Positions 11,377-42,867 of a stretch of 64,000 bases of DNA are shown here, one piece after another. The notes below the pieces were generated by a model. That model was not told the DNA's origin and ran no database searches. It worked only from the letters and a program-made list of their open reading frames with translations. Every line of letters begins with the position of its first letter. Within the stretch, counting starts at the first letter, position 1. The position numbers and the translations under genes were made by a program. This DNA comes from a virus. Where the stretch lies: positions 150,143 to 214,142 of IMG/VR virus record IMGVR_UViG_3300045988_162176; one strand, written 5' to 3'.

Positions 11377-12375
11377 TTATTGCAACTTAATACCAAAAAG
11401 GTCTTCAATATCTTTATTTTCATCCTAATTAGAGTATTTTAATGTTGTATCAGAATTTTCATGATGAGCTAAAACTTTAACTTTTTCAAGAGGGACTGAC
11501 CCTAAATTAAGTTCTTTGCATAAATAATGAGTCCCCTTCAACAAATTGTCTATATAGCAATGTCTTAATGAATGACAAGTAAGCCCTCTATAGTCTTCTC
11601 CTGTTATTTCTGTTAATTCGTCTCCCCATTGTTTAATCCAATCATATATGTTATTTGCTGTCGCTGGTCGCCCCTCCGCATTAATAAATAAAGCTTCCAC
11701 ATTATCTGTTCTTGTAGCTTCATATTTCTTAAAAGCCTCTTTTGTTCTTGAGAAATAAATCACTTTAAATTTTTTAGAACGTTTACCTACGACTACCGTA
11801 TCGGTACAATTCTTATCATCGGCTATGTCAGTTCGCTTTACTTGTAAAACCTCATTTCGTCTTACACCAGAGTCATATAAAATTCCCAGTAAGGTTGCTT
11901 CTTTATATCTTTCTTCTTTCATTAACTTATCATACAACATTTTTATATGTTCATCAGAAACAAAAGTAATTTCTCTTACAGGATTCTTTGGAACACCCTT
12001 TATTTTCTCACTAGCATTTCTATCATAATCCTCATATAAATCATCATCATCTGAAGCCATTTCTAACATCATATGAACAGCAGAAAGCATTCTATTACAA
12101 CGAGCGGCGCTTAAATTCCACTCATCCTAACAATAAATCATGAATCTACGAAAATCTCTTTTATTCAAATCTAAAAAAGATTGATTGTCACAATTTTCCA
12201 AAACCCAAATTGCCACCCTACGCAAATCCGCAAAATACTATTTTTGAGTGCCTTCTGACCTACGTTTTGCCTTACACTCGGTAATGAAATCAGTTATTAA
12301 TTCTTTATTTTCTTTGTTTACTTGCTCCCATTTTTCAGGCGTGTAAATTTTATTATAAGGCTGTTTATATGCCAT
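11377..12375 (-). CDS. Tyrosine recombinase (integrase / Xer / Rci-like); 3 in-frame TAG
   Basis: SGVRRNEV, CHSLRHCY and LAHHENSDTTLKY match the R...HxxR...H...Y catalytic pattern. ATG at 12375 overlaps the upstream TAA (TAATG). TAA stop at 11377. Confidence 0.75.
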
Positions 12376-12987: not shown

Positions 12988-13114
12988 TTTCCATGAACGT
13001 TGATTATCCAGTTCAATCATTCAAAACTTTTTTAAACCACAAACTTTAAGTAAGGGCAATAATTTCTTCGGTTTTTTGTTACAGGTGCATCCGACAAACC
13101 CCTCTTAATTTCAA

Positions 13115-15892: not shown

Positions 15893-17341
15893 TTACAATA
15901 AAATTTCTGTCGATTTGTTGGCTACAACAACCTTATCCGTCCTATTTCTTTTACTAATAAGCTCCGACAAAGTTTTACTCAGTTCAACTCTGTCTTTCAT
16001 ATTACCATGCTGAAGAACAACTTTACCATAACCGCTAGTTCCAAACCCCCCACTGTAATAATCGCAAAGTTCATCTCTTTGCATATGACTTGAAAAACTA
16101 TTTAAATTAATTACTCTACAACGACTTGGAATTTGTTTACTATTAATAGCTACAGTCTTAGTCTTCTTTTGTTTAATCTTCCAAGCTAAAGAACCTTCAA
16201 CAGAATAGCCAATAAACGCAATACCATTCTTGGCACTTGGAAGAAGTTTTTCAGCAATACCCACGGAAAAACCAGCATTTAACATTCCTGCGGAACTGAT
16301 AAATATCACTGGGTCGGACTTTGCTAAAATTTCTTCTATTTCTTCATAATTACTAATAAATTTAACCTTGTCCCATGAAGAAGCTTCAATCCATCTCTTA
16401 AGTTGCTCGCCCTCTAAAATTTCATTAAAAATTTTATTAATTTTACAAGTTAAAGGAGAACCAACATAAACAGGAATATTAAAATTCTCATCATCTTTAA
16501 ACATTTCGTAAAGAATAGTTAAAATTACTTGACTCCTCATTAAAGAGAAAGAAGGGAAAAGCAACTTTCCTTTTCCATCAATGCAAACATCATACACAAA
16601 AGCTTTAATCTTTTCTAAATCTTTTTCTCTATCTTTTGCTTTAGCACTTTTTTCTTTGCTGGCATAAGTAGATTCACCCACTAACAAATTTGCGTTTTGA
16701 ATAGGTTCAAACTTATTTGCATAATAAGTTTCAGTTCTAATATTACCTAAATCACCAGTAAACGCTATTTTACGAGTAACGCTACCATTTTTGATATATA
16801 GAATCAATTGAGCAGCGCCGATAATATGTCCAGAAGGAATAAACTCAAATGTTACCTCATCGTCTAATTTAATTCTTTGCTTAAAAGGATATTCTTCAAT
16901 ATGAGCAAGCATATCTTTTACATCAGACTCTTCATAAATTGGGGAATATTCCCTTTTAAGTTTTCGAGACAAATCTTCAACATCTCTTAACATAATCTTA
17001 GCACTATCTAATTGCAATTCTCGAATTAAATCTTTATTGCCATCAGGCACAATAATTTTTCCATCAAATCCTCTTTTGGTTAAAAGGCTTAAACGACCTG
17101 AATGGTCAACGTGCGAATGAGTCACAAATACATAATCTACATTCTTCTCTTTGAATGTAAATCTTGCACTATTAGCCTGATATTCTTTCAAAAGACTTTG
17201 ATTACCTTGTACCAATCCACAATCGACAAGAATTGTTCGTTCTGGCTTTCCCCATGTAATAACTGTACAAGAACCTGTTACATCTTCTGCTGCACCAGAA
17301 TTTTTAAAACTTACTCTAATCTTGTCTTTGCTTTTACTCAT
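15893..17341 (-). CDS. Metallo-beta-lactamase fold, beta-CASP-type nuclease (RNase J / CPSF-like)
   Basis: VFVTHSHVDHSGRL is the HxHxDH motif. Intact 482-aa ORF with a GGGGG RBS. Confidence 0.65.
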   Translation of the reverse strand: MSKSKDKIRVSFKNSGAAEDVTGSCTVITWGKPERTILVDCGLVQGNQSLLKEYQANSARFTFKEKNVDYVFVTHSHVDHSGRLSLLTKRGFDGKIIVPDGNKDLIRELQLDSAKIMLRDVEDLSRKLKREYSPIYEESDVKDMLAHIEEYPFKQRIKLDDEVTFEFIPSGHIIGAAQLILYIKNGSVTRKIAFTGDLGNIRTETYYANKFEPIQNANLLVGESTYASKEKSAKAKDREKDLEKIKAFVYDVCIDGKGKLLFPSFSLMRSQVILTILYEMFKDDENFNIPVYVGSPLTCKINKIFNEILEGEQLKRWIEASSWDKVKFISNYEEIEEILAKSDPVIFISSAGMLNAGFSVGIAEKLLPSAKNGIAFIGYSVEGSLAWKIKQKKTKTVAINSKQIPSRCRVINLNSFSSHMQRDELCDYYSGGFGTSGYGKVVLQHGNMKDRVELSKTLSELISKRNRTDKVVVANKSTEILL

Positions 17342-18216: not shown

Positions 18217-19244
18217 TTACCGAGCAAGAGTAATGGTCATCTTATCAGTAAGGTTCTCATTCAGATTAAAAGTAACAGTTACATCACCAGCAGCCTTAAC
18301 AGTAAGAACACCATTAGCATAATCAGCAGCGGCACCCGCAGCAACTTCATACTGGTCAGCATTCAGCTTAATAGGAGCGCCATCAACAGGGCAAGCATAA
18401 ACATTAAGTTCAATCTTATCACCAACTTTAGCAGTTTGATTCTTATCCTCGATAACAATGCTAGCAAACATATCGGCAGCCGTTTTATTTTCGAGAACCT
18501 GAACGATTTCAGCGTAAATACCGTCACCATCACAGCCAGCACAACCAGAAGCAAGAGCAGAACCTTCGATAGCAGTATTAGAAACACCTGAAGCACTCAT
18601 ACTAAGTTCCTGAGAACCGTTAAGCATGAAACGAGGAACCTTGATGATAACCTTACCAGCGAGGGTAGAGGTCTCAACATCACAAGAACCACCATTGTAA
18701 AGGTTGGCTTCAAGAATGCAAGTCAAAGTCTTGGGAATGAAGTTAGCACTAATGGTAATCTTAGAAGCGAGGTCATTGTGATACATGTAACGAACACAAA
18801 CTTCGACATTCTTCATGGCTTCGCCAAGAGACACTTCATTTACACCATCACCAGCAACAGCATAACGCTGATAACCTTCGTCAGTGCCAGACTTCTTAAC
18901 ATAAGCATAAACATTAGTATTACCAACCATAGGAACAGCCTTGTAAGATAAAGTAACCTTACCAGTAGCATCAGCAGTCAGCTTCTCATCCTTCATAGCA
19001 TCGCCACCAAGTTCAACATCAGAACCAGTGTTCATAGCGAGATACTCAAGAGAGAACATAGCATCGGTCAGCTTAAGGTCGAAAGTAGAAGTATGCGCAT
19101 AACGACCATAAAGCTTATTCCGAAGGCCCGCACGGAGGTCTTCAAACGAAATCCGAATAGTAATACTGGAATCAATCAAGGTATTTGCAGTAGCAACAAG
19201 GCGCTCGCCATCGAAAAGAGTGGCGCGGCCTACACCAGCTAAAA
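18217..19244 (-). CDS. Major tail (tube) protein, exon 2, with C-terminal Ig-like domain
   Basis: LAGVGRATLFDGERLVATANTLIDSSITIRISFEDLRAGLRNKLYG... resembles siphovirus major tail proteins. The C-terminus (KVGDKIELNVYA...VTVT) looks like a Big_2-type domain. TAA stop. Confidence 0.7.
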
Positions 19245-33561: not shown

Positions 33562-33742
33562 TTCTATGCTCCTTATATTAAAATATGTCCTCTATAATGA
33601 ATATTAACGAGATTGCTCTTATTAATATTCACTAACAAAACATATAAAAAACTATTTTAAATCTTTTTTAAATCTTTTTTAAATAAGCAAGACTAATCCA
33701 ACCTCTACCATCAGCTAACTTACCCCAAGTTATACCAGAGAT

Positions 33743-34729: not shown

Positions 34730-35071
34730 TTACTCCTAAATAATACTTTGAATAATAGGAGTAATGGCTTCTATACCATATTTATCTGCCAATTGATTTA
34801 TAAATGACAAACTTATCTTCATTCTATTTTCCGCACGCTCTTTAAAACAATAGCACGCATTATATACAGCGACCTCTCCCCAAGACAAACCTACAACAGT
34901 AGCAAAAGAAGCTGTATCAGCTCCAACTGGTCCAAAGAAAATAAAAATTATAAATAATGAAGAAAGGGTAATGGTGGCAATCCAAGAAATAATTCCCCAT
35001 TTTTTCATTGTTGGTGTATTCTCCATCATCCTTTTAAATTTTTCGAAAATAGAGATTTTCTGTTTACTCAT
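34730..35071 (-). CDS. Holin-like membrane protein
   Basis: AAAGGAG RBS, ATG at 35071. Two hydrophobic segments. Lies immediately upstream of the endolysin. Confidence 0.55.
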
Positions 35072-35234
35072 AATATACTCCTTTCTATAATTATAAATTA
35101 AAATCTTTTTTAAATTTCTCAACTTTTTCTAATAATAAATTAAGGAACTTAAAACAAATTTTAATTTAACACACGCTCAAAAAGCCTTTAACTAATTTGA
35201 GCGTGTGCATTTTAATAATATTTAAATTTATAAA

Positions 35235-35822
35235 TTACTCATCTAATTCATTAATTCCGTCAACTTTCAGATGGTGAACTTTATTATCTCCTTCTCCTCC
35301 GTCATTCTAAACTTGTTGTTCAGAGAAATTGCTTTCGCCACCATCCAATATAGAATTAGTATATCCACTATTCAACGATGCTAACCAAAGCTCTTGGAAT
35401 TTTTCTTCGCTCCCCTTAAATCCAGCTTTTACAGCATAAGTGTATGGACTATCACTTTGCCCTACGCTCAAACTAAGATGCTGGTCTACAGGAACTCCAC
35501 TTATTACTTTATAAACATCACCTGTAGTATATAAAATTAAATCTCCATCTGTACTACCTTCTACAGCAGACCGAGGTTTACCATCAGAAATGTACCATTG
35601 CGAAGATTTACCTTCTAACCCCCTAGGAATGTAAAAATCAAGTTGTACATCTTTTTCTGTACCTACGTTTTCTACTCGCGCTTCTTCTGTTGCGTCTATG
35701 GTGTAAGTAGCATGAACTTTTACAGATACAGTTCCACTACTTCCACCACCTGAACTTCCTTCACCAGATAGCGCCGCCATACTATACAGTAAAGCAATAT
35801 TAGAGATAGCTTCATTTGCCAT
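35235..35822 (-). CDS. Tail fibre/receptor-binding-like protein; 1 in-frame TAG
   Basis: GGGAGGG RBS. Gly/Ser linker, then a beta-rich region. Extends past the TAG at 35307 to a TAA at 35235. Confidence 0.45.
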
Positions 35823-35836
35823 AATTCAGCCCTCCC

Positions 35837-36121
35837 TTATAACATTACGCTAATTACTGGGTCAGTACCGCTATAAGATAAACGTATTTGATAATACCGA
35901 GCAACTTCAAAAGAAGTAATTCCTTGGGGAGCGACTGCCGACTTAGTTAAATCTGCTTTAACACCTGAAATTTGAACATAATCACTTTCTTTTGTTAAAC
36001 GTCCTTCTACTTTTACACTTCCAGACTTAACCTCAAGTTTGACCATGTTAACTGAAGCAGGAACATGGAATTCACGCTCGCCGCCAGCGGTAAAGACTAC
36101 TTTTTCTTTCCTAACTATCAT
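35837..36121 (-). CDS. Hypothetical protein
   Basis: Intact ORF with AAAGGAG RBS. Confidence 0.5.
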   Translation of the reverse strand: MIVRKEKVVFTAGGEREFHVPASVNMVKLEVKSGSVKVEGRLTKESDYVQISGVKADLTKSAVAPQGITSFEVARYYQIRLSYSGTDPVISVML

Positions 36122-36232
36122 TAAAAGCTGTCACTCCTTTCTCTATAAATAAATATAACTTCATGTAAACAATTAATTATATAATTGAAAGTAGAATTAC
36201 ATTTAATTATAGTAATGTCTTTTTAATTTGTA

Positions 36233-36835
36233 TCAAACTATTTGATACCAAAAATCTCCAGATTTCAGTCCACTTGGTTCATTTTTCGAGACAACAACAT
36301 CAACTCCTGAACTAATAGAAACTGCTCCAGTCATTCCATTTACAGAAGTAACTGGATAAGGAGGCGGATTTGAAGAACTGTATTGTCTTTCGTTTGCGAC
36401 ACTTCCTAAACCAATATCCGACTTGATTTGAGCTGGAGTTCTACTATAAATCCAGCCATTGTTAATGACAGCAATTTTGTCAGATGTTGAACTTAGGTCT
36501 GTATTTGCAGTTGTCCTTAACCATGTCCCTATAACATAACCATTCGTCTGAATTTCTGCGCTACCAACAGTAAGTGTACCGCTCATTGTATCGCCAGACT
36601 TAGATACCGCACCCACATCAGACGCATTTAAGGTAACATTTCCATCTTTTGAATTTACTGAAGTTACTGGATAATTTACGCTAATAGTTCCATCATTAGT
36701 CACAGATATATTATTGCCTACTTTTACTATTCCTTTTTTAGTTTTAGTGGCGACATCTTCTTCGTGTATGGCACTAGAATCTACTATATCGTATATAGAC
36801 TAATTCGGAAGTTTAATCTTTTTTATGTTAGCCAC
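36233..36835 (-). CDS. Tail fibre protein; 1 in-frame TAG
   Basis: GTG start after GGAGG. (M)ANIKKIKLPN*SIYDIVD... followed by VTSVNSKDGNVTLNASDVG / VTSVNGMTGAVSI fibre-type repeats. Confidence 0.6.
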
Positions 36836-37018
36836 AATTTACCTCCTTTTTATCATAATGTTTTATTTTGCTTTTTATTTTTATTCTTTTATTTTAAACA
36901 CACTCCGAACTTCCACTTCCTGTTGCAATCTTAAAACGAATTGCTAATTCACCATTGAATAAAAATTCTAAATTTGTTTGTCTCTTAACTTAATTTATAA
37001 AAACAAAATATTTTTAAA

Positions 37019-37059
37019 ACATACCAAAGAGTCATTTTTTATTTAACTCTTTGGTATGT
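37019..37059 (-). terminator. Hairpin terminator next to the invertible segment
   Basis: 14-bp perfect stem ACATACCAAAGAGT/ACTCTTTGGTATGT with a 13-nt loop. T-rich tail on the minus strand. Confidence 0.6.
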
Positions 37060-37069
37060 TAATAATAAA

Positions 37070-37085
37070 AAATTTAGAATTTATT
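37070..37085. repeat. Left inverted repeat (IR-L) of the candidate invertible segment
   Basis: AAATTTAGAATTTATT on plus. Its exact reverse complement lies at 38428-38443. Confidence 0.7.
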
Positions 37086-37521
37086 CGATAGTGAAATAAC
37101 AAAACGCTCTTTGATTGCAACAGGAAGTTATATGGGAAATGGTCAATACGGGTCAACTCATCCCGTTGTAATTACATGTGGATTTAGACCGAAGGTATTT
37201 TGGGTATCTATCGAGTATGCACCAGCAGAAACTTATTATCCAAATCAATATTTTTCGTTTTCGGGTTTGTGTACGTTTCCTACAGGTTCTAGCACCATGG
37301 AGTCAAACGGCTCATTTTTGTTTATTGATAGTATGTCAATAACCGAATTTTTAGCGTTTCGCGGTCAATCTTCTTCTGAGCTATATTATTTTAATATTAA
37401 ATCAATCGACACAGGGATATCCATATATTGCAACGCTCCTTCAAATTCTGATACGGCTACCGCAGCGGGGATACAATTTAACTCCCAAAATGCGAAGTTT
37501 TATTACTATGCCATTGGCTAA
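37075..37521 (+). other. Silent, inverted alternative C-terminal cassette of the tail-fibre paralog family (no RBS, no conserved N-terminus)
   Basis: The plus-strand frame *NLFDSEITKRSLIATGSYMGNGQYGSTHPVVITCGFRP...IQFNSQNAKFYYYAIG is homologous to the C-terminal parts of 38824-39285 and 39495-40156 (GSYVGNGKYGVSNPNVITCGFTP...MQFNDMGKTYSYIIFG). This is the only plus-strand coding-like segment within the minus-strand block. Confidence 0.65.
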
Positions 37522-37655
37522 TCACATTCATAACTTTTTTGTCCTTACTCCAAGCCCCTTTTAGTCATCACTTCAATTTCTAGGATGAAGCGAAAATATT
37601 ATAACAGATTACAATATGAAAAATAAAAAAATTAACAATGAGAATGAATTAAACA

Positions 37656-38561
37656 TTAAGTGCCAAGGTATTTAATGTAGACAGCGCCGCGCCGTCCGAT
37701 ACCACCCCCACCGGCTCCGTACATTTTTGAAAGAACTCCTTTTCCGTAATTTATTACATAATCACCGCTGCTTGATGCAACTCCGTCAGCGCCAAGATTT
37801 CCAGTGCCTTTTCCAGGTGTTGTTGCGTTTGTAGCATTTCCCCCATTATCTACCGATTTTGACCCAAAAGATGTTTTTGAAGATGAGTTCGAACCAATTA
37901 CAACAGCAATAGAACTGCCCTTTGTCATTTGTACGTTGTCATAACTTTGACAAGAACTTCCTCCAGAAGCAAAATTACTATAATAATATTGACCGATTCC
38001 ACCCATACCATACAATTCAATATAGTATCTGCCAGTATGAGGTGCAGTCCATGTTCCAGAGGAAGTAATTATCCATTCAGCCCCCCCGCCCATATCATAT
38101 CCACCAATAGCAGCAAAGTAATATATTTCACTCTCCTTATTATACTGACTGGATACAGAATCTGAGGAAAATAACGAAAACGTTTTTCTATCAGTGGAAC
38201 TTGTTATAAAGCACACCCCAGAAGCAAATGTATTATAAAATACACCCTATGATTCCGTAACCATATTAGCTTGAATAATGTCCCAACCACGATTCTAACT
38301 CGTCATATAAGCTGGCATAAAAATAATTATTGGCTTAAACGGAAACGTCAATGTCGTCGGATGACTTGCTCCATACGTTCCTGTTCCCCTATATGTCCCA
38401 GTATATAAATATAAATCAGTACTGGTTAATAAATTCTAAATTTCATCATATGTTTTGCCACCAAGCTGTTGACTATTAAGAGCATTATAAGCAAGAGGCA
38501 ACAGACCATCATAATCTGTGCCATTGAATTTCTTCATGTTTATGTTGTAATTTTGTGACAT
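37656..38561 (-). CDS. Tail-fibre/receptor-binding paralog P3 (constant N-terminus plus variable C-terminus); 3 in-frame TAG
   Basis: ATG at 38561. MSQNYNINMKKFNGTDYDGLLPLAYNALNSQQLGGKTYDEI*NLLTSTDLY...; fragment 37656-38216 is in the same frame. Gly-rich C-terminus. Confidence 0.6.
38428..38443. repeat. Right inverted repeat (IR-R) of the candidate invertible segment, inside P3
   Basis: AATAAATTCTAAATTT on plus. On minus it reads gAA ATT TAG AAT TTA TT, at the exact end of the conserved N-terminal block. Confidence 0.7.
38439..38551. repeat. 113-bp perfect direct repeat, copy 1 (P3 N-terminus)
   Basis: Base-for-base identical to 39187-39299 in my hand alignment. Confidence 0.85.
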
Positions 38562-38823
38562 ATTTATCTTTTACTAAATCTAGAGTACAAGATAGAGTTA
38601 CGTCTGATTAAATTTAATTTTTTTAATTTAATAAAAAAGTAAAAGTAAAAACAAAAGTAAAAATATTTTTTAAGAGCAAAATATTTTAAAAAGTAAATAA
38701 AAATGCATTTTAAAATTTTGAATTAATAAATTGAATTAATAAAAGAGAATCTGATTACGCCATCTCATCCGCTGCTCTAATAGTTGACATAATATTAACT
38801 CCTTTTACATAATTAATATACAA

Positions 38824-39285
38824 TTAAGATTCTTGATATCCGAAAATGATATATGAATAAGTTTTACCCATATCGTTAAATTGCATCTCGGCTGTGTTAT
38901 ACGATGTGTTGCTATTGACATTATACCAACTAATATATGTATCTCCCCAAGTCGTTTTGTTGTAACGTACTTGGTCAACAAAACTCATTTTATCTGATAT
39001 AATAGCGCCATTTTGTGAGTAGTAATTCGAATAGCTGTCGTAAACATTCATGATATAAACTGGTGTAAAGCCACACGTAATAACATTTGGATTCGACACA
39101 CCGTATTTACCATTACCAACATAACTTCCCCATTTTGTTATAACATTTTTGCCACCAGTTCCAATTAAAGATTGCACATACTGGACAATTTCATCATATG
39201 TTTTGCCACCAAGCTGTTGACTATTAAGAGCATTATAAGCAAGAGGCAACAGACCATCATAATCTGTGCCATTGAATTTCTTCAT
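38824..39285 (-). CDS. Tail-fibre/receptor-binding paralog P2
   Basis: MKKFNGTDYDGLLPLAYNALNSQQLGGKTYDEIVQYVQSLIGTGGKNVITKWGSYVGNGKYG... The start is taken as ATG at 39285. No clear SD site. Confidence 0.55.
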   Translation of the reverse strand: MKKFNGTDYDGLLPLAYNALNSQQLGGKTYDEIVQYVQSLIGTGGKNVITKWGSYVGNGKYGVSNPNVITCGFTPVYIMNVYDSYSNYYSQNGAIISDKMSFVDQVRYNKTTWGDTYISWYNVNSNTSYNTAEMQFNDMGKTYSYIIFGYQES

Positions 39286-39299
39286 GTTTATGTTGTAAT
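39187..39299. repeat. 113-bp perfect direct repeat, copy 2 (P2 N-terminus)
   Basis: Identical to 38439-38551. Confidence 0.85.
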
Positions 39300-39494
39300 A
39301 AAAATGGAATTTTATTTGGCAATATATATAATACAATATAACATTCGAAATTCGTGCAAATTCGATACGAATTTTCGGAAATTGGCTCTAAATAAATGAA
39401 CGATTTTATCAGGCAATTTTATCAATTTTTTCTTTTTTATTTGCTTTTATTCTTTTTTTTACTTTTAATAATTTATTTTTTTGTTTTTTTGTAG

Positions 39495-40156
39495 TTACGT
39501 TGTTGCTTCCGTTAAAGCATACCACTAATATGTAATACCAGATTCGTTAAATTGATAAGATGCATCGCGTCTGTCATACTAGCTATAAGCATTGGTATTA
39601 TTAAACGATTCATACTGTGTCTGTGTTATAATAACACTTCCATTATTATAACTTAATGTTATACTAACATATTCGTCAAACTAGCCATAATCACCACTGT
39701 TTTTGTTAGCAAAAACTAAAAAAGTCTAATCTGGAATTAAATTAATAGCTATAAAACCTATATCATTATATGGTGAAAATGTTGTATTCGAACTCATTTG
39801 GGTTGAACGCATACAAGTGACATTAAATTTAGACCAGTTCTAAACTGTCCTGTTTACAAATTTTTTACCTGAATACGTTGGACTTACTGTAAAAAGTCCA
39901 TAAAAAAGCACTAATTTAGGTTTGGCTCCAACGTAAAAAGTGGTAGGACTTGTGTATACTCCGTTACCAACATAACTACCTGTAGCAATCCGACATAACC
40001 CTTCTCTAGCTTGGGTTATAATGTCAGATTTGCCCCCCCCCCTAGTTTTTCAGCGTTATTTGCATTTGTAGCAATATCCGCTAAATAAGCATGAGGGAGG
40101 ATATTATCATAATCAGTTCCATTGAACTGTTTAATATTAACATTATAATCACTCAT
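39495..40156 (-). pseudogene. Tail-fibre paralog P1, frameshifted at a G10 tract (off state, or assembly error)
   Basis: AGGAGG RBS, ATG at 40156. With 10 G the frame stops after 46 aa (TAA at 40016). One extra G restores ...KLGGGGKSDIITQAREGLCRIATGSYVGNGVYTSP... through to a TAA at 39495. Confidence 0.6.
40033..40042. repeat. Homopolymer C10 (G10 on the coding strand)
   Basis: Counted directly: tg + 10 c + tag. Confidence 0.95.
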
Positions 40157-40176
40157 AATTTAGTTATTAACCTCCT

Positions 40177-40818
40177 TTATTCAGTGATTTCTTTCCAACC
40201 AGCGGGATAAGCATCTGGACTATAAACATTAGAAGCAATTACGCTTTCATAAATTTTTCCGTTATAGCGTACCTTATCACCAATGGCATAAGCATCATGA
40301 GCCCCAGAGGGCTGCACAAAATCTTTTATTTCTTCGGTGGGAGTTGCAGGAGGAGTTTCTGGTTCAACTACCTCAGTACCACCGCTTTCAGTACTACCAC
40401 CTGTATAAACTTCCCAACCATGTACGTCAGGAGCCCAAACATTAGCATCAATCGTACTAATGTATTTCTTTCCATTGTATTCAACAATATCGCCTTTGTT
40501 ATATGCGTCAGTAGCACCAACAGGCTGTACCCACTTTGGAGTGCCATCTGCACTTACACCAACACGTTTGTAAAGACTGGTAGCTGAATCTGGAGTCCAA
40601 TTCGTTTGACTAGTATGGTCTTGAAGTACTTGATATAAACAAACATCTCCAACACTATCATATCCATATCTAAGCCATGTCCCTGTTTTGTAACTAATTC
40701 CGTTACCATTCCATTCAGGGTAAACACTCGCAATTATTAAAGCTTCTTCTTCAGTTAAATTGGCAGCATACATCTGAATAGCTCTTCTCATTTGTTCTGC
40801 GGCTTGCATACGGTTCAT
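40177..40818 (-). CDS. Protein with two CBM5/12-like carbohydrate-binding repeats
   Basis: AYNKGDIVEYNGKKYISTIDANVWAPD and AYAIGDKVRYNGKIYESVIASNVYSPD match the Y..GD.V.YNGK.Y...N.W.P pattern. Confidence 0.6.
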   Translation of the reverse strand: MNRMQAAEQMRRAIQMYAANLTEEEALIIASVYPEWNGNGISYKTGTWLRYGYDSVGDVCLYQVLQDHTSQTNWTPDSATSLYKRVGVSADGTPKWVQPVGATDAYNKGDIVEYNGKKYISTIDANVWAPDVHGWEVYTGGSTESGGTEVVEPETPPATPTEEIKDFVQPSGAHDAYAIGDKVRYNGKIYESVIASNVYSPDAYPAGWKEITE

Positions 40819-41160
40819 TTATTTGCCCTCCTCTTCCTTTGCAACATTTGATTGGTCACTATAGCCAATAAGAGCATTAAGAACATCGTCAGTAGTAGGT
40901 TCTGGTTCTTGAGGGTCAGGGTCAACTGGGTCAGGATGTTCCTTCTTCCATTTATCAAGTAATTCTTGATTACCTGTCATCTTTGTAGCTGTGTCCCCAT
41001 CAATCTCAAGATTTACGAACCCCATGAAAGGAACATAAACATTCATAATATCTTCTTCGGTGGTCCAAACATAACCATCAGGGGGGAATAATCCACTCCA
41101 AGTTTGATTACTACGAGAACCAGTTTCATTGGCATCACGCTGAATAATCCATCTATTCAT
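40819..41160 (-). CDS. Hypothetical protein with a Pro/Asp/Glu-rich linker (tail-fibre locus)
   Basis: Start taken at ATG 41160 after AAGGAAG. The ORF track begins at 41196, which has no RBS. Confidence 0.5.
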   Translation of the reverse strand: MNRWIIQRDANETGSRSNQTWSGLFPPDGYVWTTEEDIMNVYVPFMGFVNLEIDGDTATKMTGNQELLDKWKKEHPDPVDPDPQEPEPTTDDVLNALIGYSDQSNVAKEEEGK

Positions 41161-41560
41161 ACTTTTTTCTTCCTTTTTAAATTGTTTAAACAACATAATT
41201 ACAAAATAAATTATAAATCGAATAAATAATTACGTTGTGATGAATAAGAATCTTAGCCAGTAATAGCTATTTATTTGTAAACTCGTCCATTGTCTGCAAA
41301 TAATTAATTTGGACGCTATCAATTATTCGCTCTCTTATTCAAATTTTTTATGCTTTTTTCATGCTATAATTGTATCTGTATATCACATTTTTCGTATTAT
41401 AATTATACAAGTATAACACAAAAAGAGCATATTTATAAAATTTAATAATAATTTAATAACAATATAATAATAGTTAGATTTCATAAATACAGCTCTTTTT
41501 GCTTTTTAGATTATTAAGTTATAACAACAAAAATTATTTTTTGTTCGGAAGAAGTTGTTT

Positions 41561-41598
41561 TAAAAAACCGAGAGAAAGACATTATATCTCTCTCTCGG
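41561..41598 (-). terminator. Rho-independent terminator after the tail fibre gene
   Basis: CCGAGAGA/TCTCTCGG stem followed by T6 on minus. Confidence 0.65.
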
Positions 41599-41649
41599 TG
41601 TCGTATTAATTAAACTACTTTACAATAATTAATCTTATTCAGATTTAAA

Positions 41650-42867
41650 TTACTGAACAGTAACTTCCTTAGCGGCAACAGCGATATCACCAACAGCAAG
41701 CTCAACAGCGTCAGCAGTAAACTTGGTACCAGCAGCATTAACAGTAGCCTTATCATAAGTAACACCAGAAACGACCTGAACTTCAGTACCCGTAAAGGCA
41801 GCATTGACAGTGTTCTTGTCACCAGTAAAGGTAGCAGTAAACTTATCACCAGTAAACACAGGAGCCGTAGCGGTAGCACTGGTAATACCAGTAACAACGG
41901 AAGTACCCTCAGCAGCAAGAGTAGGCAGAGAACCAGCATCGAAAGTACCCTCAGTATAAGAAGCTTTAGCACCCTGCTTAAAGGTAGGCAAGTCGTTAGC
42001 AGTAAAGGAGAAGCTCAGAGTCTCGCTTGTCTCATCAACATTGGCGCTCCATGCAGCCTTAGAACCAGCGGTAAAGGTATCATCGCCATTAGCAGTAAAG
42101 GTGTCAGCAGCCTTAGTGGGAAGAGTACCAACAGAAGTAACCTTCTGAATAGTATCAGTAGCGGGGGTAACAGTCACAGTAGGAGCAGACACAGAACCAG
42201 AAATCTGAACACCATTCTCAGCATCCTTAGCGATAGAAACCTTACCAGTAGCAGTCACATCAGCCGCAATGTTGCCCGCTGGAGTGTATGCGCTCTTGGC
42301 AAGAGTAGCAGCCGTAGCAGTCTGATTCAGAGCAACAGCAATAGAACCAGTAACATTACCAGTAGCCTTCACGCCAGAGATGGTCTGACCAGCAACAGTA
42401 CCAGTGGCAGAGTCCTTCTTAGCAAGCTTGCCAAGCCCCATATCGGTAGCAAGAGTATCAAGGTTGATATTAGCAGAAAGATTCTGAGTACCAATAGTGA
42501 CAGTCTTCAAAGCATAAATACTCTCGTCACCAAGCTCATGCCAAGTCGCGGGCTCACCACCATACACATATTCCTTAACGCCAATAATAATTACATCGCC
42601 AGCAACGGGGTCGGTAATATCGTCAAAAGAAGTAACCACACCACGGAAGTGCATGGAGCCAGAAATGCCAGCAATAGCAGCCTGAACCTGAGCACCAGTA
42701 ACAAGACCCTGCTCATCAGCACCAACACCAGCGGCAACATCCTTCTTAGCAGCAGTGCCAAGGGTAGCAAGCAGCTCACGAGCCTCAGCATCCTTCAGAT
42801 AATAAGTCTTTTCACCAATTGTCAGCTTACTAATAACAGGGAGATTTTTGGGGTCAAAAATAGCCAT
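41650..42867 (-). CDS. Tail fibre protein (Ala/Thr/Gly-rich shaft)
   Basis: GGAGGA RBS. The N-terminus ...ISKLTIGEKTYYLKDAEAR is typical of fibre attachment regions. Confidence 0.65.
   Translation of the reverse strand: MAIFDPKNLPVISKLTIGEKTYYLKDAEARELLATLGTAAKKDVAAGVGADEQGLVTGAQVQAAIAGISGSMHFRGVVTSFDDITDPVAGDVIIIGVKEYVYGGEPATWHELGDESIYALKTVTIGTQNLSANINLDTLATDMGLGKLAKKDSATGTVAGQTISGVKATGNVTGSIAVALNQTATAATLAKSAYTPAGNIAADVTATGKVSIAKDAENGVQISGSVSAPTVTVTPATDTIQKVTSVGTLPTKAADTFTANGDDTFTAGSKAAWSANVDETSETLSFSFTANDLPTFKQGAKASYTEGTFDAGSLPTLAAEGTSVVTGITSATATAPVFTGDKFTATFTGDKNTVNAAFTGTEVQVVSGVTYDKATVNAAGTKFTADAVELAVGDIAVAAKEVTVQ

What the first reader, a model, noticed from the sequence alone, without database searches (positions are those of the whole stretch)
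37070..38443. Mu G-segment-like invertible DNA switch for the tail-fibre C-terminus
Seen directly:
- The only plus-strand coding-like segment inside the minus-strand block (37075-37521) is a paralog of the C-terminal receptor-binding parts of the neighbouring fibre genes. It lacks their conserved N-terminus, a start codon and an RBS.
- It lies tail-to-tail with the variable part of P3.
- An exact 16-bp inverted repeat, AAATTTAGAATTTATT, sits at 37070-37085 and at 38428-38443. The second copy is exactly where the conserved N-terminal block of P3 ends.
- In both copies the repeat is in the same codon phase (TAG AAT TTA TT).

Inverting 37086-38427 would therefore fuse MSQNYNINMKKFNGTDYDGLLPLAYNALNSQQLGGKTYDEI in frame to (Q)NLFDSEITKRSLIATGSYMGNGQYG.... 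This matches the architecture of the Mu Gin/G and P1 Cin/C host-range switches. The crossover site contains a recoded TAG codon. No serine invertase is adjacent. The only recombinase in the window is the tyrosine recombinase at 11377-12375.
Basis: partly seen in the sequence, partly recalled or inferred. Interest (0 to 1): 0.85.

Follow-up and report, generated by a model that had tools for sequence, protein, structure and literature searches.

The report
Invertase-less tail-fibre inversion cassette remnant
The 16-bp inverted repeat marks real recombination sites of a tail-fibre cassette-shuffling system found across this family of ~210-220 kb gut phages, but this genome keeps only a two-cassette remnant, lacks the invertase gene its relatives carry at the matching position, and so is probably locked in one orientation.

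Summary
AAATTTAGAATTTATT lies at 37070-37085 (+) and 38428-38443 (-), in the same codon phase. Inverting 37086-38427 in silico fuses the 41-aa constant N-terminus of P3 in frame to the silent plus-strand cassette.

The repeat alone is weak evidence: a 16-bp inverted repeat arises by chance in about 20% of simulated windows. Relatives settle it. The same 16-mer precedes every fibre C-terminal cassette in related ~210-220 kb phage contigs (4, 5 and 7 copies). Two of them, L003 and L011, differ by inversion and exchange of whole cassette modules, with breakpoints exactly at the sites.

This is therefore a Min/shufflon-like multiple-inversion system rather than a simple Mu G segment. Both relatives whose sequence reaches that position (L003, L011) carry a 235-aa Mpi-family serine invertase just after the endolysin gene.

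In this genome that gene is missing: 61 bp replace 941 bp. The 64-kb window has no serine recombinase. The distal half of the array is reduced to a degenerate third site and a stub. All nine contigs of this invertase-less clade show the same orientation.

Best reading: a genuine but probably frozen switch. It is a new member of a known kind, of moderate interest.

The parts
38428..38443 (-). Proximal crossover site (sR), AAATTTAGAATTTATT. It lies inside P3 at the boundary between the constant and variable parts and is read as I-q(TAG)-N-L.
   Evidence: Exact match. Same phase as the other copy. Homologous to site s1 of L003, L011 and L109.
37070..37085 (+). Distal crossover site (sM), an exact inverted copy at the start of the silent cassette.
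   Evidence: Equals s2 of L003 and L011, next to the conserved hairpin.
37086..38427 (.). Invertible segment of 1342 bp holding two tail-to-tail C-terminal cassettes.
   Evidence: In-silico inversion gives an in-frame N-X fusion. The homologous [C/X><D] module sits inverted at another pair of sites in L003.
38444..38561 (-). Constant N-terminal part of P3 (MSQNYNINMKKFNGTDYDGLLPLAYNALNSQQLGGKTYDE; ATG at 38561).
   Evidence: 113 nt (38439-38551) are 100% identical to the P2 N-terminus. These residues are conserved across 46 homologs.
37656..38427 (-). Cassette D, the currently expressed C-terminus of P3: a glycine-rich fibre domain with two extra in-frame TAG codons.
   Evidence: Translation. 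187 homologs. Model of an 81%-identical homolog with pLDDT 81.5; best PDB match is the cyanophage Pam3 fiber. A homolog follows Baseplate_J/Phage_Wedge1 in L018.
37086..37521 (+). Cassette X, a silent short-type C-terminus with an intact ORF and no start codon of its own before an internal ATG at 37132.
   Evidence: Paralogy to P2, P1 and D. 92% amino-acid identity to X of L011; dN/dS about 0.4-0.5 from small counts.
37018..37060 (-). Terminator-like hairpin (17-bp stem) followed by a U-rich tract on the minus strand. It closes the P3 transcription unit whichever cassette is fused.
   Evidence: Fold: -23.7 kcal/mol, z -5.4. Conserved and collinear between s2 and s3 in L003, L011, L012 and L024.
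36915..36975 (-). Degenerate third site (36960-36975, AAATTTAGAATTTTTA, 2-nt insertion) plus a roughly 20-codon cassette stub. This is the remnant of the second expression site; the leader ATG is mutated to ATT.
   Evidence: In L003 and L011 the intact equivalent (s3) is preceded by the in-frame leader ATG AAG TTG AGA GAC AAA CAA and followed by a full cassette.
33607..33668 (.). Empty position after the endolysin gene, where L003, L011, L014, L015 and L020-L023 carry the 233-235-aa serine invertase gene.
   Evidence: Window 33668->33607 (61 bp) corresponds to L011 16356-17297 (941 bp). The invertase gene sits directly after the endolysin gene in those loci.
38824..39285 (-). P2, a non-switching paralog: the same N-terminus fused directly to a short-type C-terminus, with no crossover site.
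39495..40156 (-). P1, a third paralog, interrupted by a poly-G(10) tract at 40033-40042 that puts the C-terminal 184 codons out of frame.
11377..12375 (-). Xer-like tyrosine recombinase, the only recombinase found in the window and the alternative candidate catalyst, 25 kb from the switch.
   Evidence: PF00589 E 3.8e-14 and phrog_1 integrase. Below all NCBIfam equivalog cutoffs.

Best explanation
**What the segment is**
- 37070-38443 is the surviving first module of a site-specific, multi-cassette inversion system (a shufflon) that diversifies the C-terminus of a tail-fibre-like protein.
- The system occurs across a lineage of ~210-220 kb gut phages that read TAG as a sense codon.

**How the complete system works (relatives L003, L011, L109)**
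- A 41-aa constant N-terminus ends in the 16-bp site AAATTTAGAATTTATT.
- The same site, in either orientation, precedes each of 4-7 promoterless C-terminal cassettes.
- A recombinase inverts the DNA between oppositely oriented sites. Any cassette can therefore be spliced in frame (I-TAG-N-L) to the constant part.
- A terminator hairpin follows the first module. After it, a second site carries its own 7-codon leader.
- The catalyst is most likely the 235-aa Mpi-family serine invertase encoded just after the endolysin gene, about 3.3 kb downstream.

**State of this genome**
- Only cassettes D (expressed) and X (silent) remain between two exact sites.
- The third site, its leader ATG and its cassette have decayed.
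- The invertase gene is absent.
- The switch is therefore most likely locked with D expressed.

**Shown versus inferred**
- Shown: the sites, the reading phase, the in-frame fusion, the rearrangements among relatives with breakpoints at the sites, the presence or absence of the invertase gene, and the uniform orientation of assemblies.
- Inferred: that the serine invertase is the catalyst, that the protein is a receptor-binding fibre, and that no flipping occurs in this genome.
For: **Sites and phase**
-.
- Cassette-linked 16-mers number 5 in L003, 4 in L011 and 7 in L109. Each precedes a long TAG-read-through ORF beginning IqNL.

**Rearrangements with breakpoints at the sites**
- Window 38443->37579 matches L003 8555->7689 in inverted orientation, starting at the outer base of the site.
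- L003 5230-7043 matches L011 13145-11328, inverted, 94.6% identity.
- L003 7692-8555 matches L011 10725-9864, inverted.
- The hairpin unit and both flanks remain collinear.

**Invertase in relatives**
- PF00239 (E 3e-35) and phrog_125 'DNA invertase'.
- NF009949 Mpi family, 299 bits against a cutoff of 272. The closest solved structure is Gin.
- It is the only recombinase family flagged within 10 kb of the arrays in L003 and L011.
- Mpi acts on many distant sites (PMC4747536).

**Loss in this genome**
- A 61 bp versus 941 bp indel at the syntenic position.
- No serine recombinase in the 64 kb.
- Degenerate third site, stub and lost leader ATG.
- The invertase-less relative L012 has also lost s1 and has a truncated cassette.

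**Orientation**
- L001, L002, L004, L019 and L024-L027, from several samples, together with L005 (which covers only the flank), make up the 9 contigs at 96-100% identity.
- Every contig that crosses a junction shows N-D and hairpin-X. 7 cross sR and 7 cross sM.
- Logan contigs run straight through both sites.

**Fibre identity**
- Neighbouring Mtd_N protein, baseplate context in L018, and Foldseek matches to the Pam3 fiber and to glycine-rich or tail-fibre proteins.
Against: - Both remaining sites are still exact and X is an intact 150-codon ORF with dN/dS below 1. That fits continued use, although the counts are small and part of that branch belongs to invertase-bearing L011.
- About 150 kb of the 214-kb genome lies outside the window and could encode another recombinase.
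- Assemblies report only the majority orientation. No reads were available.
- The link between the serine invertase and the 16-mer is correlative, resting on two genomes.
- Contigs L014 and L015 carry a 99%-identical invertase but lack the 16-mer array. They have a different inverted-repeat-flanked module instead.
- The core of the site is a 5-3-5 dyad (AAATT-TAG-AATTT). That is not the classic 2-bp-core dyad of serine invertases.
- Pfam and PHROGs give no family for P3 or X. The Foldseek matches have low TM-scores (about 0.3).
Confidence: 0.6

Rival explanations
1. The switch is still active in this genome. The 1342-bp segment flips between N-D and N-X, driven by a recombinase that is not adjacent. 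Candidates are the Xer-like tyrosine recombinase at 11377-12375 (as in the tyrosine-invertase Rin shufflon), a recombinase in the unseen ~150 kb, or an Mpi-type master invertase supplied in trans by the host or a co-infecting relative.
For: - Two exact sites and an intact, in-phase silent cassette, with X dN/dS below 1.
- A tyrosine recombinase is present in the window.
- There is precedent for a phage-encoded tyrosine invertase acting on short asymmetric repeats (PMC6109161).
- Mpi-type enzymes act on distant loci (PMC4747536).
- The site can also be read as short arms around a 7-bp asymmetric spacer, TTTAGAA.
Against: - Nine contigs of the clade show one orientation only, and Logan contigs do not break at the sites.
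- The cognate invertase position is empty.
- The rest of the array is decaying here and in invertase-less L012.
- The tyrosine recombinase is 25 kb away, is generically Xer-like, and shows no association with the arrays. No PF00589 gene is flagged in the 20-kb array loci L003, L011 and L109.
Confidence: 0.3
2. The rearrangements among relatives arose by homologous recombination or gene conversion between paralogous cassette starts, not by a dedicated site-specific recombinase. On this reading the 16-mer is merely the most conserved coding stretch.
For: - The cassettes are paralogs that share IQNL and a downstream TGSYxGxG motif.
- P2 and P3 show a 113-nt, 100%-identical tract typical of gene conversion.
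- The hairpin unit is collinear in all genomes. Under a pure inversion model that requires an extra inversion of the 94-bp unit.
Against: - Sixteen bp is shorter than the homology usually needed for RecA-type exchange (own knowledge).
- Identity falls sharply on both sides of the 16-mer, even between cassettes only 25-30% identical in protein sequence. This points to a DNA-level constraint rather than a coding one.
- Breakpoints coincide with the sites in every comparison.
- Arrays co-occur with a DNA invertase gene.
Confidence: 0.06
3. The inverted repeat is a chance match in AT-rich DNA, and the plus-strand cassette is only a decaying duplicate with no history of inversion.
For: A 16-bp inverted repeat within 3 kb appears in 21.5% of simulated windows. 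No flipped version of this exact genome was found.
Against: - The same 16-mer sits in phase at the start of every cassette in L003, L011 and L109, reached by 0 of 200 shuffles.
- Whole modules are inverted between relatives exactly at the sites.
Confidence: 0.02

Closest known systems
Min multiple-inversion system of plasmid-prophage p15B (serine invertase, six crossover sites, tail-fibre C-termini)
   Same: - Several short crossover sites in both orientations.
- Each precedes a promoterless fibre C-terminal cassette.
- A single constant N-terminal part.
- A small serine invertase in the intact relatives.
- Cassette modules are exchanged by nested inversions (Min is described in PMC6109161).
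   Different: - The invertase is of the Mpi family, not Gin/Cin/Min/Pin, and lies about 3.3 kb away behind five genes.
- The site is a 16-bp AT-rich sequence containing a recoded TAG.
- There is a second expression site with a 7-codon leader after a terminator.
- The copy in this window has only two cassettes and no invertase.
Mu G segment/Gin and P1 C segment/Cin
   Same: In the window the layout has two cassettes: constant part, site, two tail-to-tail variable parts, inverted site. Inversion would give in-frame splicing.
   Different: - No adjacent invertase in the window, and none at the syntenic position.
- No U/U' assembly genes inside the segment.
- I saw no resemblance of the site to gix/cix (compared from memory, not with a tool).
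- The Fis-dependent enhancer could not be assessed.
- The relatives' enzyme matches Gin at only E 3e-14.
Rin shufflon of Bifidobacterium prophages (PMC6109161) and the BV01-like phage tail-fibre shufflon (PMC13596623)
   Same: These are gut-phage receptor-binding-protein shufflons. Short directional repeats (11 bp and 10 bp) lie upstream of each variable cassette, and configurations differ between genomes with breakpoints at the repeats.
   Different: - Rin uses an adjacent tyrosine recombinase.
- Here the associated enzyme is a serine invertase, and the window copy has none.
- The phage lineage (~210-220 kb, TAG-recoded) and the cassette family are different.
Mpi master DNA invertase of Bacteroides fragilis
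   Same: The relatives' recombinase passes the NCBIfam Mpi-family equivalog cutoff. Like Mpi (PMC4747536), it is not adjacent to its presumed targets and may serve more than one locus.
   Different: Mpi flips promoters of polysaccharide loci in a bacterial chromosome. Here the targets are coding cassettes of a phage fibre gene. The sites do not resemble the Mpi repeat as I recall it from memory; this was not tested.

Membership tests
Gin/Cin-type invertible tail-fibre segment (Mu G, P1 C) | Serine invertase gene of the Gin/Hin/Cin/Pin group directly adjacent to the segment | tested here: not met
   No serine recombinase in the 64-kb window (tblastn; HMM of 120 homologs, best E 0.36). Relatives carry an Mpi-family enzyme about 3.3 kb away.
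Gin/Cin-type invertible tail-fibre segment (Mu G, P1 C) | Constant N-terminal part spliced in frame to alternative C-terminal parts by inversion between two inverted sites | tested here: met
   Same codon phase at both sites. In-silico inversion gives a 189-codon ORF.
Gin/Cin-type invertible tail-fibre segment (Mu G, P1 C) | Crossover sites of the gix/cix/hix type: about 26 bp, two 12-bp half-sites around a 2-bp core | tested here: not met
   The conserved core is 16 bp (AAaTTTAGAaTTTATT) and the flanks are not conserved. The internal dyad is 5-3-5. The gix/hix consensus used for comparison was recalled from memory.
Gin/Cin-type invertible tail-fibre segment (Mu G, P1 C) | Both orientations coexist in a population | not testable with these tools
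   No reads were available. As a surrogate, nine contigs of the clade all show one orientation.
Gin/Cin-type invertible tail-fibre segment (Mu G, P1 C) | Recombinational enhancer (Fis-bound) in cis | not testable with these tools
   No model or assay is available.
Multiple-inversion system / shufflon (Min, R64, Rin) | Three or more crossover sites in both orientations, each preceding a cassette | tested here: inconclusive
   Met in relatives: L003 has 5 sites, L011 has 4, L109 has 7. The window has 2 exact sites and 1 degenerate site with a stub.
Multiple-inversion system / shufflon (Min, R64, Rin) | Different genomes show different cassette permutations with breakpoints at the sites | tested here: met
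   Window against L003 and L003 against L011.
Multiple-inversion system / shufflon (Min, R64, Rin) | Dedicated recombinase encoded with the array | tested here: not met
   Present in L003 and L011. Absent from the window and from its syntenic position.
Mpi-family serine invertase (applies to the relatives' enzyme, not to a window gene) | Score above the NCBIfam NF009949 equivalog cutoff, with the catalytic serine motif | tested here: met
   299 bits against a cutoff of 272. N-terminal YIRVSTDQQ motif. PF00239 E 3e-35.
Phage tail fibre / receptor-binding protein (P3 and its cassettes) | Sequence or fold similarity to known fibres, and a position among tail or baseplate genes | tested here: inconclusive
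   No Pfam or PHROG hit. A model of an 81%-identical homolog (pLDDT 81.5) matches the cyanophage Pam3 fiber at E 1.5e-3 but with TM about 0.3, and matches BFVD glycine-rich and tail-fibre proteins. A homolog directly follows Baseplate_J/Phage_Wedge1 in L018, and the window neighbour has an Mtd_N domain.
TAG-recoded phage | In-frame TAG codons in conserved long genes; a suppressor tRNA | tested here: inconclusive
   The portal-like ORF has 6 in-frame TAGs, the terminase 2 and P3 3. ORF coverage rises from 62 to 77 kb when TAG is read through. The public gene calls also read through TAG. No tRNA lies in the window.

The most novel reading that the evidence does not exclude
Invertase-less members of this phage lineage may keep two exact sites and an intact silent cassette because they are still flipped in trans. 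The enzyme would be an Mpi-type 'master' invertase supplied by a co-infecting invertase-bearing relative or by the host, so host-range switching would be a shared good within a phage population. In addition, every fibre isoform must read through a TAG embedded in the crossover site itself. Production of any receptor-binding variant would then depend on the phage's late stop-codon recoding.
Probability: 0.12. Interest if true: 0.7.

Novelty: new member of a known kind. Interest (0 to 1): 0.42.

Why it matters
- Invertible fibre genes are the classic way for a phage to hedge its host range. This case extends them to an uncultivated lineage of ~210-220 kb gut phages that read TAG as a sense codon, with arrays of 2 to 7 receptor-binding cassettes.
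- The lineage contains natural 'switching' genomes (invertase present, full array) and 'locked' genomes (invertase lost, array decaying). This gives a ready comparative system for asking when host-range switching pays off.
- It also defines a short 16-bp site and a small invertase that could be tested as a recombination tool.
- For annotation: the plus-strand ORF is a silent cassette, not a gene. The in-frame TAG at the junction should not be read as a stop.

Tried and rejected
**Searches that found nothing useful**
- BLAST of 35000-42000 against the 50,697 GenBank phage records: no match.
- Exact-pattern scans for the N-terminus/site junction in IMG/VR and JGI metagenomes. There were 0 hits for the window-specific 22-mer. 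The 19-mer gave 3 and 78 hits, none encoding the fibre family, so all are chance matches.
- The search for related loci with P3 and with X in viral contigs: nothing.
- Pfam and PHROGs for P3, the N-X fusion and P2, and Pfam also for two neighbouring ORFs: no family. The 36233-36838 ORF has no Pfam hit and only four weak PHROG hits of unknown function.

**Searches for the flipped state**
- Looking for a flipped copy through the orientation-independent 129-aa X product returned only contigs in the window's orientation.
- Homologs of the predicted N-X fusion were either orphan X fragments or distant N+short-type proteins. No close N-X fusion was found.
- The Logan contig L019 ends 28 nt inside X, not at a site, so it says nothing about heterogeneity.

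**Attempts to define the invertase's target**
- I tried to unify the 16-mer with the perfect 7-2-7 dyad TGCAAGA-AA-TCTTGCA, which flanks another module next to the 99%-identical invertase in L014 and L015. There was no convincing similarity by eye.
- Breakpoints inside that module showed no shared motif.
- L020-L022 differ by an insertion, not an inversion.

**Technical limits**
Full report
**1. The observation**

The exact 16-mer AAATTTAGAATTTATT is at 37070-37085 (+) and 38428-38443 (-). The window belongs to a phage in which TAG is read through. The portal-like ORF carries 6 in-frame TAGs, the terminase 2 and P3 3. Public gene calls on the same contig also read through TAG.

Three paralogous fibre-like genes lie on the minus strand:
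- P1, 40156->39495, interrupted by a poly-G tract.
- P2, 39285->38824.
- P3, 38561->37656.

P3 has a 41-aa constant N-terminus ending in ...KTYDE-I-q-N-L. The I-q-N-L codons are the right-hand repeat.

The only plus-strand coding segment (37069-37521) starts with the other copy in the same phase. It continues for 150 codons with no start codon before codon 21. It is a paralog of the P2, P1 and P3 C-termini (E 3e-12, 1e-7 and 7e-8).

Inverting 37086-38427 in silico gives an uninterrupted N-X fusion of 189 codons and leaves cassette D as the silent partner.

**2. Is it more than chance?**

Not on the repeat alone. In order-3 Markov simulations, 21.5% of 64-kb windows contain an exact inverted repeat of at least 16 bp within 3 kb. 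The position, the reading phase and above all the comparative data carry the case.

**3. Source and relatives**

A neighbouring protein places the window on ~214-kb metagenomic contigs: ERZ28621211 scaffold_4 (214,257 bp) and ERZ27296301 k119_55060 (214,176 bp). These are 100% identical and in the same orientation.

Related contigs carry the same 16-mer in phase at the start of every fibre C-terminal cassette:

| Contig | Length | Sites |
|---|---|---|
| L003 | 15.7 kb | 5 |
| L011 | 218,876 bp | 4 |
| L109 | 211,236 bp | 7 |

In L003, 9 matches with up to 3 mismatches compare with 1.83 expected, reached by 0 of 200 shuffles. Each site is followed by a long ORF beginning IqNL. Sequence immediately outside the 16 bp is not conserved.

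**4. Evidence for inversion at the sites**

- The homolog of the window's expressed cassette D lies inverted and distal in L003. Window 38443->37579 matches L003 8555->7689, starting at the outer base of the site.
- L003 and L011 share about 94% identity. Their two cassette modules have exchanged places and orientation: L003 5230-7043 matches L011 13145-11328, and L003 7692-8555 matches L011 10725-9864.
- The constant part, the central hairpin unit and the downstream flank stay collinear.
- One large inversion between the first and last sites, plus re-inversion of the short central unit, converts one arrangement into the other.

This is the signature of a multiple-inversion system such as Min of p15B, the Rin shufflon or the BV01-like shufflon (PMC6109161, PMC13596623). 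It is not a simple two-state G segment.

In L003 and L011 the site after the hairpin has its own in-frame leader, ATG AAG TTG AGA GAC AAA CAA. This suggests a second expression site. The hairpin itself folds strongly (-23.7 kcal/mol, z -5.4) and is followed by a U-rich tract on the minus strand.

**5. The recombinase**

L003 and L011 encode a 235-aa serine recombinase directly after the endolysin gene, about 3.3 kb from the array. The two copies are 232/235 identical.
- PF00239, E 3e-35, and phrog_125 'DNA invertase'.
- It passes the NCBIfam equivalog cutoff for the Mpi master-invertase family, 299 bits against 272.
- Gin is its closest solved structure, E 3e-14.
- Mpi is known to act on many distant sites (PMC4747536), so the 3.3-kb distance is not an objection.

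The assignment is nevertheless correlative. Contigs L014 and L015 carry a 99%-identical invertase but lack the P1-P3 locus. They hold another rearranging module flanked by inverted copies of a different, perfect 7-2-7 dyad.

**6. State of the system in this window**

- At the syntenic position, 61 bp (33607-33668) replace the 941 bp that hold the invertase gene in L011.
- Neither tblastn nor an HMM built from 120 invertase homologs finds a serine recombinase in the 64 kb.
- The distal half of the array is gone. The third site (36960-36975) has two mismatches and a 2-nt insertion. Its leader ATG is now ATT. Only about 20 codons of a cassette remain.
- The same decayed state is shared by the other invertase-less contigs (L024-L027 and L012). 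L012 has also lost the first site and has a truncated cassette.
- All nine contigs of this clade, from several samples and 96-100% identical, have N-D expressed and X silent. Logan contigs run through both sites without branching.

Against a fully dead switch:
- Both remaining sites are exact.
- X is intact, with dN/dS about 0.4-0.5 from small counts.
- About 150 kb of the genome was not visible.
- A Xer-like tyrosine recombinase lies at 11377-12375.

**7. What the protein is**

Pfam and PHROGs give nothing for P3 or X. The family has 187 detectable homologs in phage contigs.
- In L018 a homolog directly follows Baseplate_J and Phage_Wedge1.
- The window neighbour carries an Mtd_N domain.
- A model of an 81%-identical homolog (pLDDT 81.5) matches the cyanophage Pam3 fiber best among solved structures. 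Among predicted viral structures it matches glycine-rich and tail-fibre proteins, with low TM-scores.

'Tail fibre or receptor-binding protein' is therefore well supported by context and moderately by fold.

**8. Verdict**

The Mu/P1 label is only an analogy. The system is a shufflon-like array served, in relatives, by an Mpi-family serine invertase. The copy in this window is a two-cassette remnant without that enzyme and is probably locked.

Phage fibre inversion systems are well known (Gin, Cin, Min, Rin, BV01-like; PMC9881135 for the bacterial survey). This is a new member of a known kind. Its less ordinary features are:
- the host lineage, large gut phages that read TAG as sense;
- a recoded TAG inside the crossover site;
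- arrays of up to seven cassettes;
- naturally occurring switching and locked versions.

Noticed in passing
window 40033-40042 (- strand), within P1 (40156->39495): A poly-G tract of 10 puts the 184-codon C-terminal ORF of fibre paralog P1 out of frame; 8 or 11 G would restore it. Relatives have 10 G (L003, L006) or 9 G (L007, L011), and all of these are also out of frame. This could be slipped-strand phase variation, programmed frameshifting or homopolymer miscalling.
   Followed up: partly
window 38439-38551 and 39187-39299: The N-terminal coding parts of P2 and P3 are 100% identical over 113 nt in this genome, against about 88-95% between the window's blocks and the corresponding blocks of relatives. 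This suggests recent gene conversion. Several public contigs end inside this repeat.
   Followed up: partly
window 38295-38297 and 38247-38249 (- strand, cassette D): Two in-frame TAG codons in the expressed cassette are specific to this genome. L011 and L024 have GAG (Glu) and TAC (Tyr) at those positions. This is tolerable only if TAG is decoded; otherwise P3 would be truncated.
   Followed up: partly
L014 11517-11532 / 16713-16728; L015 12243-12258 / 18492-18507: Contigs with a 99%-identical invertase lack the P1-P3 locus. They carry a 5.2-6.2 kb module flanked by inverted copies of a perfect 7-2-7 dyad, TGCAAGA-AA-TCTTGCA. One copy overlaps an RBS and ATG. A 584-bp gene segment is inverted and relocated between L014 and L015. 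This is possibly a second target of the same invertase.
   Followed up: partly
L020 15307-16791, L021 15966-17450, L022 9099-10583: Relatives with an 87%-identical invertase carry a 494-aa reverse transcriptase (RVT_1) next to a variable region. Together with the Mtd_N-domain proteins in this lineage, this hints at a diversity-generating retroelement. The three samples differ by a roughly 0.6-kb insertion near 13,026.
   Followed up: no
whole window: ARAGORN finds no tRNA gene in the 64 kb despite pervasive in-frame TAG. Any suppressor tRNA must lie elsewhere in the ~214-kb genome. Several Pfam hits on the neighbouring contigs are to Bacillus SPbeta-type proteins (YonB, YonD, YonG), and many genes have GGAGG-type ribosome-binding sites.
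   Followed up: no
L016 10001-10897 and L018 7617-8840: Close homologs (75-82% identity) of the D-type fibre protein occur as single, non-switching genes in unrelated 45-56 kb phages that have no 16-mer site. The receptor-binding module therefore appears to be exchanged horizontally between phage lineages.
   Followed up: partly
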